From the NCBI GenBank assembly GCA_000004985.1, contig GG739600.1: a DNA stretch of 1,043 nucleotides; one strand, written 5' to 3'. Origin of the DNA: Naegleria gruberi. Its lineage: Eukaryota. Within the stretch, counting starts at the first letter, position 1. Every line of letters begins with the position of its first letter. The notes beneath the pieces were generated by a model. The model saw nothing but the letters and a program-made list of their open reading frames with translations, ran no database searches and had not been told where the DNA came from. Below, in pieces: positions 1 through 1,043 of this stretch. Position numbers and translations under genes: made by a program.

Positions 1-58
1 AAAAACATTCAATAGGACTCTCTAACAAAAAAAATTGCTTTATTTTTGTTCGCTTAAT

Positions 59-107
59 AAAACCCTATCAACTCGTCTTAATTGACAAGTGGTAGGGTTT
101 TTTTTTT
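59..107 (+). terminator. Imperfect palindrome, hairpin plus T10 (intrinsic-terminator-like, potentially bidirectional), copy 1
   Basis: Pairing worked out by hand. Inner stem 75-77 pairs with 84-86 (gtc/gac) around loop ttaatt (78-83). One mismatch at c74.a87. Further pairs 73-88, 72-89 and 71-90, with a70 bulged. Then 69-91, 68.92 (G.U), 67-93, 66-94, 65-95, 64-96 and 63-97 (ccc/ggg). A59-A62 can pair with T98-T101. T-run 98-107 is 10 T on + strand. On the - strand the hairpin is followed by uuuuauuauauu. Confidence 0.5.
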
Positions 108-180
108 CGAAAATTTTTCAATCCTGACTTGGATATTTTTTCAAGTTCGGGAAAGTATTTTCTTTTTTTTAATATAATAA
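61..180. repeat. Repeat unit copy 1 (120 bp, reference copy)
   Basis: Reads aaccctatcaactcgtcttaattgacaagtggtagggttttttttttcgaaaatttttcaatcctgacttggatattttttcaagttcgggaaagtattttcttttttttaatataataa. Confidence 0.93.
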
Positions 181-227
181 AACCCTATCAACTCGTCTTA
201 ATTGACAAGTGGTAGGGTTTTTTTTTT
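179..227 (+). terminator. Hairpin plus T10, copy 2 (identical to copy 1)
   Basis: Same sequence as 59-107 shifted by 120 nt. T10 lies at 218-227. Confidence 0.5.
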
Positions 228-300
228 CGAAAATTTTTCAATCCTGACTTGGATATTTTTTCAAGTTCGGGAAAGTATTTTCTTTTTTTTAATATAATAA
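181..300. repeat. Repeat unit copy 2 (120 bp, identical to copy 1)
   Basis: Character-for-character identical to 61-180. Confidence 0.93.
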
Positions 301-346
301 AACCCTATCAACTCGTCTTAATTGACAAGTGGTAGGTTTTTTTTTT
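299..346 (+). terminator. Hairpin plus T10, copy 3 (stem weakened by loss of one G)
   Basis: The ccc arm (303-305) now faces gg (335-336). T10 lies at 337-346. Confidence 0.45.
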
Positions 347-419
347 CGAAAATTTTTCAATCCTGACTTGGATATTTTTTCAAGTTCGGGAAAGTATTTT
401 CTTTTTTTTAATATAATAA
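301..419. repeat. Repeat unit copy 3 (119 bp, single-G deletion in the hairpin 3' arm: ggtagg vs ggtaggg)
   Basis: Identical to copy 1 except GGG becomes GG at 335-336. The T10 tract is retained at 337-346. Confidence 0.9.
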
Positions 420-465
420 AACCCTATCAACTCGTCTTAATTGACAAGTGGTAGGGTTTTTTTTT
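418..465 (+). terminator. Hairpin plus T9, copy 4
   Basis: Stem identical to copy 1. T-run at 457-465 is 9 nt. Confidence 0.45.
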
Positions 466-537
466 CGAAAATTTTTCAATCCTGACTTGGATATTTTTTC
501 ATAATTTGGGGGATATTTTTCTTTTTTAATATAATAA
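420..537. repeat. Repeat unit copy 4 (118 bp, T9 instead of T10, 3' third diverged)
   Basis: Hairpin intact; T-run at 457-465 is 9 nt. The 3' part caagttcgggaaagtattttctttttttt is replaced by cataatttgggggatatttttctttttt, with substitutions and homopolymer length changes. Confidence 0.9.
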
Positions 538-580
538 AACCCTATTAATATACTTTAATTGACAAGTTGTAGGGGTTTTT
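536..580 (+). terminator. Degenerate hairpin plus T5, copy 5
   Basis: aaaaccctat...gtaggggttttt can still pair ccc/ggg with a bulge. Only 5 T follow before atcccg. Confidence 0.25.
538..580. repeat. Truncated, degenerate copy 5 (hairpin region only)
   Basis: aaccctattaatatactttaattgacaagttgtaggggttttt keeps aaaaccc...ttaattgacaag...taggggttttt but has several substitutions and only T5. Homology ends at 580. Confidence 0.8.
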
Positions 581-582
581 AT

Positions 583-613
583 CCCGATTCGAAGGGATTC
601 GAAGGGAAAGCCC
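583..613. repeat. Short 10-bp direct repeat GATTCGAAGG x2 (586-605) with small CCC/GGG hairpins (583-596 and 604-613) at the array's 3' boundary
   Basis: cccGATTCGAAGGGATTCGAAGGgaaagccc. Two palindromic TTCGAA hexamers. ccc583-585 can pair ggg594-596. ggg604-606 can pair ccc611-613 around an aaag loop. Confidence 0.6.
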
Positions 614-888
614 ACAAATAATGTCGGATGAAATAATCGGTCTGTAAACAGTATTTTAAATTACTCCGAAACCCCGTATTTCCCAAAAATGCATTTACTT
701 CCTACTTGCTCCGTTTGGACTACCTCCCGAACGTTTGGCATCAAACAATGTTTATTATAGTGGATTATTTTGTCCGACAATTTGCAGTGCACCTTCGAGT
801 TATTTAAATAATGATTTTTTTATATGACACAAAACCCCCCCTCGTGACTTTAAGTTACCCTTGTTTTGCGCGAAAGACGACAAAAGTG

Positions 889-898
889 AAAAAAAAAA
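889..898. repeat. A10 homopolymer tract
   Basis: gtgaaaaaaaaaattt: ten consecutive A at 889-898. Other tracts are T7 at 815-821 and C7 at 835-841. Confidence 0.9.
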
Positions 899-949
899 TT
901 TCGATTTGATTTTTTACTTTGCGTTAATTAGATAATAATTTTATTAATA

Positions 950-978
950 TTGATCAATGGTCTATATATTAGTATAAT
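950..978 (+). promoter_or_regulatory. Candidate sigma70-type promoter: TTGATC (950-955), 17-nt spacer, TATAAT (973-978)
   Basis: The -35 matches ttgaca at 4 of 6 positions. The -10 is perfect TATAAT and the spacing is the optimal 17 nt. The predicted start near 985-987 is directed rightward out of the window. No ATG or RBS follows within the window. Such motifs also arise by chance in AT-rich DNA. Confidence 0.3.
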
Positions 979-1043
979 ATGTATATATTTCCAGATTTGA
1001 AATAAAAACAAAAATTCAATTTTTCAATCTTTGCGAATTAGAA

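What the first reader, a model, noticed from the sequence alone, without database searches (positions are those of the whole stretch)
59..465. Each unit carries an A4-hairpin-T10 module: four tandem bidirectional terminator-like structures 120 nt apart
The ~43-nt imperfect palindrome, with a ~21-bp stem and TTAATT loop, is flanked by AAAA on the 5' side and TTTTTTTTTT on the 3' side. This is the architecture of a rho-independent terminator readable from either strand. The hairpin recurs four times at exact 120-nt phasing, plus one decayed copy. Possible roles are a strong multi-copy insulator between convergent genes, the 3' ends of tandemly duplicated small RNAs, or a DNA-level site where a protein binds the palindrome. 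The only substitutions within otherwise identical copies hit the stem (GGG to GG) and the T-run length. Both would tune terminator strength.
Basis: partly seen in the sequence, partly recalled or inferred. Interest (0 to 1): 0.6.

Follow-up and report, generated by a model that had tools for sequence, protein, structure and literature searches.

The report
Repeated terminator-like modules, Naegleria rDNA circle
The four hairpin-plus-T-run repeats are real, and they sit just downstream of the ribosomal RNA genes on the circular rDNA plasmid of the amoeba Naegleria gruberi, where they most likely act as repeated stop signals for RNA polymerase I rather than as bacterial-style bidirectional terminators.

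Summary
Window 55-580 is a 119-120-nt tandem array of 4.4 copies. Four units carry A4-hairpin-T9/10 (RNA -20.5 kcal/mol; -13.8 in the GG variant), and a fifth is decayed.

The window is not bacterial. It begins with the last four codons of a Naegleria gruberi protein (AUH25140.1) and lies in the non-ribosomal spacer of the rDNA circle (CERE). It is downstream of 18S-5.8S-28S and of a His-Cys-box nuclease-like ORF, all on the same strand.

Each unit is three-part on the rRNA-sense strand: a hairpin, a 26-29-nt T-rich tract, and a GACTTGK box followed by T6.

- The hairpin plus T-run has 0/49 differences between two lineages whose flanks differ by about 13%.
- A more distant Naegleria lineage has different hairpin sequences with the same CCC..GTC-loop-GAC..GGG frame, the same spacing and the same box, directly after 28S with no ORF.
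- The box is strongly enriched on the sense strand in four lineages.

This matches the hairpin / T-rich / roadblock layout of eukaryotic Pol I terminators (Nielsen & Zenkin 2025). No RNA 3' ends or binding protein are known, so the function is inferred. Fork barrier, ORF poly(A) signal, origin and neutral minisatellite remain rivals.

The parts
1..15 (+). Last four codons (K N I Q) and the TAG stop of the 344-aa His-Cys-box (zf-His_Me_endon) ORF of the Naegleria gruberi rDNA circle
   Evidence: The window starts AAA AAC ATT CAA TAG. P0002 (AUH25140.1, N. gruberi) ends ...NKNIQ*. L005 matches window 1-84 at 100%. Pfam PF05551 scores 1e-26 for the L001 orthologue.
55..580 (+). Tandem array of 119-120-nt units: three core units, one penultimate variant and one decayed terminal unit
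   Evidence: TRF: period 119, 4.4 copies, 95% matches. Unit table. The same architecture, with 1-4 core units, appears in L001, L002, L004 and L007.
59..107 (+). Module 1: A4, hairpin H1 (CCCTATCAACTCGTC / TTAATT / GACAAGTGGTAGGG), T10
   Evidence: RNA fold -20.5 kcal/mol, z -5.9. Coordinates.
179..227 (+). Module 2: A4, H1, T10 (identical to module 1)
299..346 (+). Module 3: A4, H1 with GGG shortened to GG, T10 (weaker, -13.8 kcal/mol)
418..465 (+). Module 4: A4, H1, T9
98..125 (+). T-rich tract (T10 CGAAAATTTTTCAATCCT, 61% T, 75% pyrimidine) between H1 and the box. The same tract is at 218-245, 337-364 and 457-483.
   Evidence: Spacer length is 26-29 nt in the N. gruberi lineages and in the diverged L013 lineage.
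126..141 (+). GACTTGG-ATA-T6 box, the candidate roadblock-protein site. It repeats at 246-261, 365-380 and 484-499.
   Evidence: The motif GACTT[GT]-N1-6-T>=5 occurs 3, 6, 3 and 7 times on the sense strand of the spacer in four lineages, against about 0.07 in shuffles.
122..152 (+). Second hairpin H2 (UCCUGACUUGGA / UAUUUU / UUCAAG U UCGGGA), which contains the box. It repeats at 242-272 and 361-391 and is disrupted in unit 4 (480-510).
   Evidence: -17.0 kcal/mol for the 71-nt + strand segment (which also forms an outer helix) against -9.9 on the - strand. It is weaker in the L001 lineage (-12.9) and lost in the penultimate unit. It is specific to this lineage, not robustly conserved.
536..580 (+). 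Decayed terminal copy. The 5' arm is replaced, the 3' half TTAATTGACAAGTtGTAGGGG is kept, the T-run is only T5, and no box follows.
   Evidence: Fold no better than shuffles. It is decayed in the same way in the L001, L002, L004 and L007 lineages.

Best explanation
The window is the 3' non-ribosomal spacer of the circular extrachromosomal rDNA element (CERE) of Naegleria gruberi. It starts at the stop codon of the nuclease-like ORF that follows the 28S gene.

Each 120-nt unit is a three-part termination module, read on the strand that is sense for the rRNA genes and the ORF:
1. an RNA hairpin (H1);
2. a T-rich tract of 26-29 nt that begins with T9-10 right at the base of the hairpin;
3. a conserved GACTTGK box.

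Proposed mechanism, by analogy with the Pol I terminators of yeast, Xenopus, mouse and human:
1. A sequence-specific protein sits on the box and stops the polymerase that has read through from the 28S gene and the ORF.
2. The weak rU:dA hybrid lets the stalled complex slide back to the nascent hairpin.
3. The hairpin dislodges the transcript.

Four tandem copies would give one main terminator and several fail-safe ones. The same bound protein could also stop replication forks that approach the rRNA genes head-on.

Shown here: the anatomy, the location, the orientation, and the conservation of hairpin, spacing and box.

Inferred: transcription reaching the array, protein binding at the box, and transcript release.
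For: **Identity and position.**
- The window is 98.6-100% identical to contigs encoding N. gruberi protein AUH25140.1.
- The related contigs L001 and L002 carry 18S, 5.8S and 28S, all on the window's + strand. The ORF starts about 600 nt after 28S, and the array starts 44 nt after the ORF stop.

**Structure.** H1 folds at -20.5 kcal/mol, z -5.9.

**Constraint.**
- H1 plus T10 has 0/49 differences between two lineages. The rest of the unit has 10/72 (Fisher p = 0.005), the downstream flank differs by 12.6%, and the ORF dS is 0.23.
- In L007 the U.G wobble became U-A in all copies.

**A more distant lineage** (L012/L013/L014; SSU 97.6% identical).
- Three modules lie 450-700 nt after the 28S end, with no genuine ORF in between.
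- Their hairpins have different mid-stem sequences but the same CCC..GTC-hexaloop-GAC..GGG frame. Several pairs are changed on both sides: T-A / G-C / A-T, C-G / T-A, C-G / G-C.
- A T-run follows on the sense strand only.
- The 26-29-nt spacing to a GACTTGK/GACTTTG box is the same.

**The box.** It is enriched 40-90 fold over shuffles, on the sense strand, in four lineages.

**Other lineages.** L010 and L016 (SSU 94%) also carry A-run/hairpin/T-run repeats and the box right after 28S.

**Literature.**
- Nielsen & Zenkin 2025 (PMC12366685) show that Pol I termination needs a nascent RNA hairpin, a T-rich tract and a roadblock site. In their system the hairpin is about 20 nt before the 3' end and the roadblock is 15 bp beyond it. 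Fail-safe terminators also carry hairpins. The layout is found in yeasts, Xenopus, mouse and human.
- No function has been assigned to the repeats in the Naegleria non-ribosomal spacer (NRS).
Against: - No transcript 3' ends, run-on data or protein-binding data exist for this region. One paper states that rRNA is the only documented CERE transcript.
- In N. gruberi the array is about 1.7 kb past the 28S end with a 1-kb ORF in between. An earlier hairpin-T7 element containing GACTTG lies only about 100-150 nt after 28S and could be the real primary terminator.
- H1 folds about equally well on both strands, and the L007 variant even favours the - strand. A DNA-level palindrome (protein dimer site or cruciform) is therefore not excluded.
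- The hairpin abuts the T-run directly and a T-run also follows the box, so the geometry is not identical to yeast.
- Conservation rests on two close lineages plus one to three distant ones, and the hairpins of L010 and L016 are not demonstrably homologous.
- AATAAA sits just before every H1 in the window, which fits a poly(A) signal instead.
Confidence: 0.45

Rival explanations
1. DNA-level element. The palindromes and/or the GACTTGK boxes bind a protein that forms a polar replication fork barrier at the 3' end of the rDNA transcription unit. This would keep forks from the single CERE origin from meeting Pol I head-on. It could coexist with the terminator role, as with TTF-I, Reb1 and Sap1 sites elsewhere.
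For: - Location is at the 3' side of the co-directional genes.
- The copies are repeated and oriented.
- H1 is a near-palindrome that folds equally on both strands and also as DNA (-8.5 / -9.9 kcal/mol).
- Primary sequence is fully invariant, including loop and bulge, as expected for a protein site.
- The CERE replicates by a theta mechanism from a single origin in the spacer, and how transcription-replication conflicts are resolved is stated to be unknown.
Against: - No fork-pausing data could be accessed.
- In the distant L013 lineage the hairpin sequence differs while pairing is kept. That pattern points to structure rather than a fixed protein recognition sequence.
- The T-run asymmetry (sense strand only in L013) suggests a transcription-linked signal.
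Confidence: 0.15
2. The array is the 3'-end and polyadenylation region of the nuclease-like ORF's mRNA: AAUAAA, a cleavage site inside H1, and a U-rich downstream element. It was duplicated in tandem, so only the first copy matters for the ORF.
For: - The array starts 44 nt after the stop codon on the same strand.
- AATAAA lies at 56, 176, 296, 415 and 533, immediately 5' of every H1, with T10 about 40 nt downstream.
- The ORF is intact in three lineages with dN/dS 0.45-0.57, so it is probably expressed and needs a 3' end signal.
- In the third lineage (L006) the contig ends in the unit's lead-in...TTTTTCTTTTTTAATACAATAAA, right after the stop.
Against: - The L013 lineage has the homologous hairpin/T-run/box modules directly after 28S with no such ORF upstream.
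- The first unit of the L001/L002 lineage lacks AATAAA (TTTAACAAAACCC).
- AATAAA is expected by chance in 72% A+T DNA.
- This reading does not explain the conserved box at fixed spacing.
Confidence: 0.12
3. A neutral minisatellite. A single ancestral hairpin/T-run was amplified by slippage or unequal exchange on a plasmid present at about 4000 copies. The multiplicity and most of the unit have no function.
For: - Copy number differs between assemblies: 1-4 core units in the window, L001, L002, L004 and L007.
- Units within an array are nearly identical, which indicates concerted evolution.
- The published N. gruberi circles differ by 121 bp (14,128 bp recalled for NEG-M, 14,007 bp for EGB), which is about one unit (for EGB; inference).
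- The NRS is generally repeat-laden and poorly conserved between species.
Against: - H1 plus T10 is invariant between lineages while the rest of the same unit and the flanks diverge.
- Hairpin, spacing and box are retained in a lineage where the sequences differ.
- The box shows strand-specific enrichment.
- Short-read assemblies may mis-count copies, so the copy-number variation is itself uncertain.
Confidence: 0.1
4. The array is part of the replication origin of the circle: an A+T-rich, easily unwound, structure-forming repeat region.
For: - The array is 25-33% G+C with many T-runs.
- A single origin was mapped to a 2.1-kb NRS fragment, and a 636-bp fragment is said to contain it.
- Origins of other extrachromosomal rDNAs contain repeated elements (general knowledge).
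Against: - The coordinates of the mapped fragment could not be obtained.
- There is no ARS consensus match in the window at 0 mismatches, and matches with one mismatch are fewer than chance.
- In well-studied rDNAs the origin lies upstream of the promoter rather than at the 3' end (general knowledge).
- The strict sense-strand orientation of the modules and the box is not expected of an unwinding element.
Confidence: 0.07
5. The pseudo-palindromic H1 repeats are binding or cleavage sites for the dimeric His-Cys-box nuclease-like protein encoded immediately upstream, for example for plasmid amplification or recombination.
For: - The ORF belongs to the I-PpoI family domain PF05551. From general knowledge, members of that family bind pseudo-palindromic sites as dimers.
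- The ORF is adjacent, conserved and under moderate purifying selection.
- H1 is sequence-invariant.
Against: - The L013 lineage has H1-type hairpins but no PF05551 ORF in the available spacer.
- The hairpin sequence varies between lineages while pairing is kept.
- Homing endonucleases normally target the empty allele, not their own flank.
- There is no PDB homologue by sequence to model the specificity.
Confidence: 0.05
6. One reading: bacterial-type, rho-independent, bidirectional terminators acting as an insulator between convergent genes, or the 3' ends of tandem small RNA genes.
For: The hairpin plus T10 anatomy and the folding energy fit. There are weak sub-threshold Rfam hits to a terminator-like Streptococcus sRNA model (32.5 bits against a gathering score of 48).
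Against: - The sequence is from a eukaryotic rDNA circle.
- There is no match in phage, plasmid, viral or prokaryotic genome collections.
- All genes are co-directional.
- The - strand has only U4, and none in L013.
- No promoter or RNA family supports sRNA genes.
Confidence: 0.03

Closest known systems
Eukaryotic RNA polymerase I terminators of the hairpin / T-rich / roadblock type (S. cerevisiae T1 with Reb1/Nsi1, S. pombe Reb1 sites; Nielsen & Zenkin 2025, PMC12366685)
   Same: - Located downstream of the large-subunit rRNA gene on the sense strand.
- A stable nascent-RNA hairpin is followed by a T-/pyrimidine-rich tract and then a short conserved oriented box.
- Additional fail-safe copies also carry hairpins.
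   Different: - The hairpin abuts T9-10 directly. Hairpin-to-box distance is 26-29 nt, against about 35 nt in yeast.
- The box (GACTTGK) is unlike the Reb1/Nsi1 site, and its binding protein is unknown.
- A further T-run follows the box.
- In N. gruberi the array lies behind a 1-kb ORF, 1.7 kb from the 28S end.
- Nothing has been tested experimentally.
Mouse rDNA terminator array (Sal boxes T1-T10 bound by TTF-I), which also acts as a polar replication fork barrier
   Same: Several tandemly spaced terminator units in the 3' spacer, each with a protein box and flanking T-rich sequence. It has a dual role in termination and fork arrest (general knowledge).
   Different: The box sequence is different. 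The mouse units are not near-identical 120-nt tandem repeats. TTF-I binding is demonstrated there and not here.
Xenopus laevis rDNA terminator T3 box (recalled as GACTTGC; Labhart 1995 is cited in PMC12366685 but could not be read)
   Same: Six of the seven recalled bases match (GACTTG), in a Pol I 3'-spacer context.
   Different: The resemblance is recalled from memory and could be chance for a 6-7-mer. The source paper could not be read. The Naegleria box continues with K-N2-3-T6+.
Bacterial rho-independent (intrinsic) terminators
   Same: A-tract, stem-loop, U-tract, with comparable stability. In the Pol I model the hairpin is thought to act allosterically on the polymerase, as in bacteria.
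   Different: - The host is a eukaryote.
- The stem is A+T-rich in the middle, with a bulge and a mismatch.
- The module is not truly bidirectional.
- It is probably roadblock-assisted.
Repeat families already catalogued in Naegleria CERE spacers (N. gruberi EGB: 7 families of 34-371 bp; N. fowleri LEE: a 168-bp tandem repeat after 28S)
   Same: This array is evidently one of the catalogued N. gruberi families. The 371-bp and 34-bp families were recovered in L002. The N. fowleri-like contig L016 has 168-bp repeats with an A7-hairpin-T9 and the GACTTGT-T8 box.
   Different: The papers that could be read list repeats by size only. They describe no hairpin/T-run/box anatomy, no cross-species conservation and no function. 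The 2021 review and the 2019 origin paper could not be read.

Membership tests
Naegleria gruberi CERE (rDNA circle) non-ribosomal spacer | Sequence identity to N. gruberi CERE DNA or protein | tested here: met
   Window 1-15 encodes the exact C-terminus and stop of AUH25140.1 [Naegleria gruberi]. Window is 100% identical to L005 over 1-84 and 98.6% to L004 over 279-1043.
Naegleria gruberi CERE (rDNA circle) non-ribosomal spacer | Linked on one small circle to single 18S-5.8S-28S genes | tested here: met
   L001 (14.4 kb) and L002 (unit length 13,799 bp, assembled more than once round) carry SSU, 5.8S and LSU on the same strand as the array.
Eukaryotic Pol I terminator (hairpin + T-rich + roadblock) | Lies downstream of the LSU rRNA gene, on the sense strand | tested here: met
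   It is about 1.7 kb downstream in N. gruberi (behind the ORF) and about 450 nt downstream in L013.
Eukaryotic Pol I terminator (hairpin + T-rich + roadblock) | Stable nascent-RNA hairpin upstream of the release site | tested here: met
   -20.5 kcal/mol, z -5.9. Pairing is kept with different sequences in L013.
Eukaryotic Pol I terminator (hairpin + T-rich + roadblock) | T-/pyrimidine-rich tract between hairpin and roadblock site | tested here: met
   26-29 nt, 45-64% T, 59-79% pyrimidine.
Eukaryotic Pol I terminator (hairpin + T-rich + roadblock) | Oriented binding site for a roadblock protein (Reb1 / Nsi1 / TTF-I / Rib2 class) just downstream | tested here: inconclusive
   A conserved, sense-oriented GACTTGK box sits at fixed spacing and is enriched 40-90 fold. 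No binding protein is known and the box does not match known sites.
Eukaryotic Pol I terminator (hairpin + T-rich + roadblock) | Pre-rRNA or read-through transcripts end in the T-rich tract, and termination depends on the elements | not testable with these tools
   This needs 3'-end mapping and mutagenesis. No such data were found in the searchable literature.
Bacterial rho-independent terminator | Stem-loop immediately followed by a U-tract | tested here: met
   The simple consensus scan found none, because of the bulge and mismatch.
Bacterial rho-independent terminator | Located in a bacterial or phage genome and read by bacterial RNA polymerase | tested here: not met
   It is on a eukaryotic rDNA circle. 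There are no matches in the phage, plasmid, viral or prokaryote collections.
Bacterial rho-independent terminator | Bidirectional: a U-tract follows the hairpin on both strands | tested here: not met
   The - strand has U4 then A, and L013 has no T-run on the - strand.
rDNA polar replication fork barrier | Repeated oriented protein sites at the 3' end of the rDNA transcription unit | tested here: inconclusive
   Position and repetition fit. Protein binding is unknown.
rDNA polar replication fork barrier | Direction-dependent fork arrest | not testable with these tools
   This needs 2D gels. The origin-mapping paper could not be read.
Canonical eukaryotic poly(A) signal | AAUAAA 10-30 nt before the cleavage site, plus a U-rich downstream element | tested here: inconclusive
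   AATAAA lies before each H1 in the window but is absent from the first unit of the L001/L002 lineage. The modules also exist without the ORF in L013.
Pol III-type small RNA gene array (tRNA, 5S, other) | A recognisable RNA gene ending in a T-run | tested here: not met
   No tRNA. No Rfam family reaches its gathering score.

The most novel reading that the evidence does not exclude
Naegleria RNA polymerase I may terminate in an essentially intrinsic, bacterial-like way. Here the hairpin abuts U9-10 with no gap, whereas in yeast it lies 20 nt upstream and needs roadblock-driven backtracking. The hairpin/U-tract alone could therefore release the polymerase. The GACTTGK box protein would then serve mainly as a polar fork barrier or fail-safe. 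That would be a factor-independent terminator for a eukaryotic nuclear polymerase, repeated four times, in a deep-branching eukaryote.
Probability: 0.12. Interest if true: 0.7.

Novelty: new member of a known kind. Interest (0 to 1): 0.4.

Why it matters
The Naegleria rDNA circle is present at about 4000 copies per cell, carries all of the cell's rRNA genes, and also exists in the brain-eating N. fowleri. Recent papers state that the sequences controlling its transcription, replication and transcription-replication conflicts are unknown.

This analysis gives a concrete, testable candidate for where and how rRNA transcription ends: hairpin, T-tract and GACTTGK box, conserved across several Naegleria lineages.

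If confirmed, it would have three consequences.
- It would extend the recently proposed hairpin-dependent model of Pol I termination (PMC12366685) to Discoba, far from yeasts and animals.
- It would point to an unidentified box-binding protein.
- It would supply terminator and insulator parts for the CERE-based vectors that several groups are trying to build.

It is not a new kind of system, and the repeat itself is already in published sequences.

Tried and rejected
**Searches for the source.**
- Phage and plasmid collections: no match.
- Two viral-contig scans and a prokaryotic genome scan with hairpin patterns: no match.
- The one metagenome scan found L001 and opened the case.

**Bacterial-style annotation.**
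- Rfam gave only sub-threshold hits (SpF36 sRNA 32.5 bits against 48; mir-454 and others), read as generic hairpin/T-run matches.
- No tRNA or tmRNA.
- The sigma-70 promoter and terminator scans are uninformative for a eukaryote.

**Ideas considered and dropped.**
- A giant-virus 'hairpin rule' or a eukaryotic transposon was considered because of the His-Me-finger ORF and the low ORF density. Alternative genetic codes were tested as well. All were dropped once rRNA genes were found on the contig.
- Origin of replication: no ARS consensus match. The origin-mapping paper is not held. The plasmid sequences in a supplement are truncated. The origin position therefore stayed unknown.

**More distant comparators.**
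- The L006 contig breaks exactly at the first hairpin.
- P0007 has no DNA available.
- The P0010 contigs stop at the 28S end.
- What worked was using a spurious 46-aa ORF inside the LSU gene as a handle.

**Structure comparison.**
- MAFFT did not align the diverged hairpins in register. Pairs were therefore read from the individual MFE folds, so no formal covariation statistic was computed.
- Strand preference of folding was tested and found inconsistent, so RNA and DNA structure cannot be separated.
- H2 was tested for conservation and found to be lineage-specific.

**Other.**
- A PDB sequence search for the ORF gave nothing.
- The Xenopus T3-box sequence could not be verified from a held paper.
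Full report
**1. The observation.**

The window is 1043 nt, non-coding apart from its first 15 bases, and 19-43% G+C. TRF reports one array at 55-580 with period 119, 4.4 copies and 95% matches. The gap-free repeat finder agrees.

Anchoring on AAAACCCTAT gives unit starts at 59, 179, 299, 418 and 536, so the spacings are 120, 120, 119 and 118.

Units 1-4 carry A4 - CCCTATCAACTCGTC - TTAATT - GACAAGTGGTAGGG - T9/10.
- As RNA the module folds at -20.5 kcal/mol on the + strand and -20.3 on the - strand, with z about -5.8 and no shuffle folding as well.
- Unit 3 has GG instead of GGG and drops to -13.8.
- Unit 5 is decayed and no better than shuffles.
- The stem has 17 pairs, counting the four A:U pairs, with one bulge and one mismatch.

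The described feature is therefore real and far beyond chance. The minor claims (exact 120 phasing, a 21-bp stem, differences confined to stem and T-run) need correcting. Unit 4 has a different 3' half.

**2.

Folding a whole unit shows a second + strand hairpin at 122-152. With an outer helix, the 71-nt segment that contains it folds at -17 kcal/mol, against -9.9 on the - strand. This hairpin is weaker in a sister lineage and lost in the penultimate unit, so it is not robust.

It does overlap a short sequence, GACTTGG-ATA-TTTTTT (126-141 and its repeats), which turned out to be the most widely conserved element of all (section 5).

**3. Where the window comes from.**

Phage, plasmid, viral and prokaryotic collections gave nothing. 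One metagenome scan found a 14.4-kb contig, L001 (VFQN01005947.1), that is 90% identical to the window.

L001 has very few ORFs. It carries eukaryotic SSU, 5.8S and LSU rRNA genes plus a GIR1 branching ribozyme, all on the strand that corresponds to the window's + strand.

Directly upstream of the array is a 355-aa ORF with the His-Me-finger homing-endonuclease domain PF05551 (1e-26). Its closest database relative, P0002, is AUH25140.1, 'hypothetical protein [Naegleria gruberi]'. P0002 ends ...NKNIQ*, exactly what window 1-15 encodes. Contigs encoding P0002 match the window at 98.6-100%.

Naegleria keeps all its rRNA genes on a circular plasmid of about 14 kb, the CERE. Published descriptions of the N. 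gruberi element mention an ORF downstream of 28S with similarity to homing endonucleases, and seven repeat families of 34-371 bp in the non-ribosomal spacer. I recovered the 371-bp and 34-bp families in L002.

The window is therefore the spacer just 3' of that ORF.

**4. Map.**

| Feature in L002 (unit length 13,799 bp) | Coordinates |
|---|---|
| 18S | 1463-3482 |
| 5.8S | 3516-3660 |
| 28S | 3808-7263 |
| ORF | 7861-8916 |
| Array | 8960-9243 |
| Dispersed repeats, a 101-bp tandem repeat and a 373-bp tandem repeat | between the array and the next 18S |
| Next 18S | starts at 15262 |

Every identified gene is co-directional with the modules, so nothing here is convergent. The number of core units differs between assemblies: 3 in the window, 4 in L001, 2 in L007, and 1 in L002 and L004. 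Each array is always followed by the same penultimate variant and the same decayed terminal unit. Short-read assemblies may mis-count repeats.

**5. Conservation.**

*5a. Close lineages.* The window lineage and the L001/L002 lineage have 99.98% identical rDNA, but their spacers differ by about 12.6% and the ORF dS is 0.23.
- The 49 nt of A4-H1-T10 show no difference between the two lineages.
- The other 72 aligned positions of the same unit show 10 differences (Fisher p = 0.005).
- In L007 the single U.G wobble of H1 has become U-A in every copy.
- In a third lineage (58% protein identity) the contig stops exactly where H1 should begin, after a recognisable unit lead-in.

*5b. Distant lineages.* A spurious 46-aa ORF inside the LSU gene served as a look-up handle and retrieved rDNA circles of other Naegleria lineages.

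L012/L013/L014 are 97.6% identical to L002 in SSU.
- 28S ends at 6766 in L013. No genuine ORF follows; the called 154-aa ORF overlaps the 28S end.
- Three hairpin/T-run modules sit at 7216-7269, 7306-7358 and 7422-7474 on the sense strand.
- Their hairpins are CCCGAGTGGATGTC-TTGAAT-GACATGCTATTCGGG and CCCAACCAGATAGTC-TRAAAT-GACTCTGTTTGGG. The outer CCC/GGG, the inner GTC/GAC and the hexaloop size are the same as in the window. The middle of the stem is different but still paired. Read from the base outward, the pairs include T-A / G-C / A-T, C-G / T-A and C-G / G-C.
- The frame CCC..GTC-N6-GAC..GGG occurs nowhere else in about 120 kb of loci.
- In this lineage the T-run follows the hairpin only on the sense strand.
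- Each hairpin is followed, after 26-29 nt of T/pyrimidine-rich sequence, by GACTTGK or GACTTTG plus a T-run. This is the same spacing as in the window.

*5c. The box.* The motif GACTT[GT]-N1-6-T>=5 occurs 3, 6, 3 and 7 times on the sense strand of the spacer in four lineages (L002, L013, L016, L010). Dinucleotide shuffles give about 0.07, and the antisense strand has 0-2. It is absent from a non-Naegleria rDNA contig, L017.

*5d. L016 and L010.* L016 looks N. fowleri-like: it has 168-bp repeats, a group I intron in the spacer and a 208-aa ORF, as in the published map. Each of its repeats has an A7-hairpin-T9 and a GACTTGTAA-T8. L010 has about a dozen hairpin/T-run modules right after 28S, plus a 15-bp perfect palindrome 33 nt upstream of GACTTGTC-T11.

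**6. Interpretation.**

The conserved, sense-oriented trio of hairpin, T-rich tract and box, downstream of the LSU gene and usually repeated, is the anatomy of RNA polymerase I terminators.

Nielsen & Zenkin (2025, PMC12366685) showed for yeast that Pol I stopped by Reb1 or Nsi1 backtracks over the T-rich tract to a nascent hairpin, which then releases the transcript.
- In their system the hairpin is about 20 nt before the 3' end and the roadblock site is 15 bp beyond it.
- Fail-safe terminators also carry hairpins.
- The layout is seen in S. pombe, Xenopus, mouse and human.

The Naegleria units fit this with a somewhat tighter geometry. I therefore read the array as one main and several fail-safe Pol I terminators, possibly doubling as a polar fork barrier as TTF-I and Reb1 sites do.

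This is also consistent with the ORF being expressed from a Pol I read-through transcript. From general knowledge, that is how I-PpoI, the founding member of its domain family, is expressed. It fits with the group I ribozyme found directly upstream of the spacer ORF in L010 and L016.

What is shown: identity, map, anatomy and conservation. What is inferred: that Pol I reaches the array, that a protein binds the box, and that release occurs in the T-tract.

**7. Why the confidence is only moderate (0.45).**
- No 3'-end, run-on, ChIP or binding data exist. One paper says rRNA is the only documented CERE transcript.
- In N. gruberi an earlier hairpin-T7 containing GACTTG lies 100-150 nt after 28S and may be the primary terminator.
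- H1 folds about equally on both strands, so a DNA-level palindrome is not excluded.
- AATAAA precedes each H1, which fits an mRNA poly(A) signal. That reading is weakened by the ORF-less L013 arrangement and by the AATAAA-less first unit of L001/L002.
- The mapped replication origin could not be located relative to the array.
- The comparison rests on few independent lineages, and I could not compute a formal covariation statistic.

**8. Comparison with what is known, and novelty.**

The repeat is present in published N. gruberi CERE sequences and is evidently one of the catalogued repeat families. The papers I could read give sizes only and assign no function. As late as 2026 the elements governing rRNA transcription and transcription-replication conflicts on the CERE are described as unknown.

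The mechanism proposed here is a known kind, a Pol I terminator. The Naegleria instance, its box and its cross-lineage conservation would make it a new member of that kind. The bacterial-terminator membership fails on host and on bidirectionality.

The resemblance of GACTTG to the Xenopus T3 box is from memory only. I could not verify it.

**9. Verdict.**

Interest is moderate (0.4). This is a niche but concrete and testable lead for CERE biology and for the generality of hairpin-dependent Pol I termination.

Noticed in passing
window 1-15; L004 361-1395; L001 7408-6341 (-); L006 986-2029: The spacer ORF (344-355 aa, PF05551 His-Me-finger / I-PpoI-type domain) has been called 'likely a pseudogene' in the literature. 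It is nonetheless intact in three lineages, with dN/dS 0.45-0.57 at dS 0.23-0.65. The HxC...CC..SH and N..CPG motifs are invariant in the three-way alignment, so it looks like a functional, expressed gene.
   Followed up: partly
L016 7351-7662 and L010 7830-8135: In two more distant Naegleria lineages a group I intron-like ribozyme (Rfam RF00028, 103-116 bits) sits in the non-ribosomal spacer directly upstream of the spacer ORF. This suggests the ORF mRNA is cut out of a Pol I read-through transcript. No such ribozyme reaches threshold upstream of the N. gruberi ORF (L002 7264-7860).
   Followed up: partly
window 622-914: This stretch is a dispersed repeat. A second copy lies about 1.9 kb downstream on every circle examined (L002 9284-9575 and 11204-11496 are 94.5% identical; L004 3680-3971; L001 3405-3697). 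It is part of an old duplication of about 2 kb in the spacer. Its function is unknown.
   Followed up: partly
window 586-607: A small perfect tandem repeat, GATTCGAAGG x 2.2, lies immediately after the decayed last unit. The L001 lineage has only one copy.
   Followed up: no
window 1018-1029: The 12-mer AATTTTTCAATC, which lies between T10 and the box in every unit, recurs once more 548 nt after the array. It is also present in L001. It is not followed by a box and may be a relic of another unit.
   Followed up: no
window 900-1043: A very A+T-rich stretch (19-24% G+C) begins about 320 nt after the array. T-runs of 6 or more outnumber A-runs 14:2 in the window and 12:1 in the first 2.2 kb after 28S in L002. 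The ratio reverses (16:30) in the rest of the spacer. This could mark a switch related to replication or transcription.
   Followed up: partly
L002 7363-7417 (same sequence in L007 near 9495): A hairpin (-14.9 kcal/mol) followed by T7, with GACTTG in its loop, lies only about 100-150 nt after the 28S 3' end. It is identical in both N. gruberi lineages and is a candidate primary Pol I terminator upstream of the ORF.
   Followed up: partly
whole array; literature values: The two published N. gruberi circles differ by 121 bp (14,128 bp recalled for NEG-M against 14,007 bp for EGB). That is about one repeat unit, so strain length differences may simply reflect copy number in this array.
   Followed up: no
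L010 6800-7680: There are about a dozen tandem modules of the type AAAGACATGGTAAAG-loop-CTTTACCTCTATGTC-T4-6 directly after the 28S gene. The two that were folded are 2.6-4.2 kcal/mol more stable on the sense strand. This is an independent case of hairpin/T-run repeats in a Naegleria 3' spacer.
   Followed up: partly
L001 14046-14242 and 13315-14079 (-): The L001 strain carries a twin-ribozyme group I intron in its SSU gene (GIR1 branching ribozyme, 203 bits) with a 254-aa His-Cys-box homing endonuclease ORF. L002, whose spacer ORF protein is 99% identical to L001's, lacks the intron.
   Followed up: no
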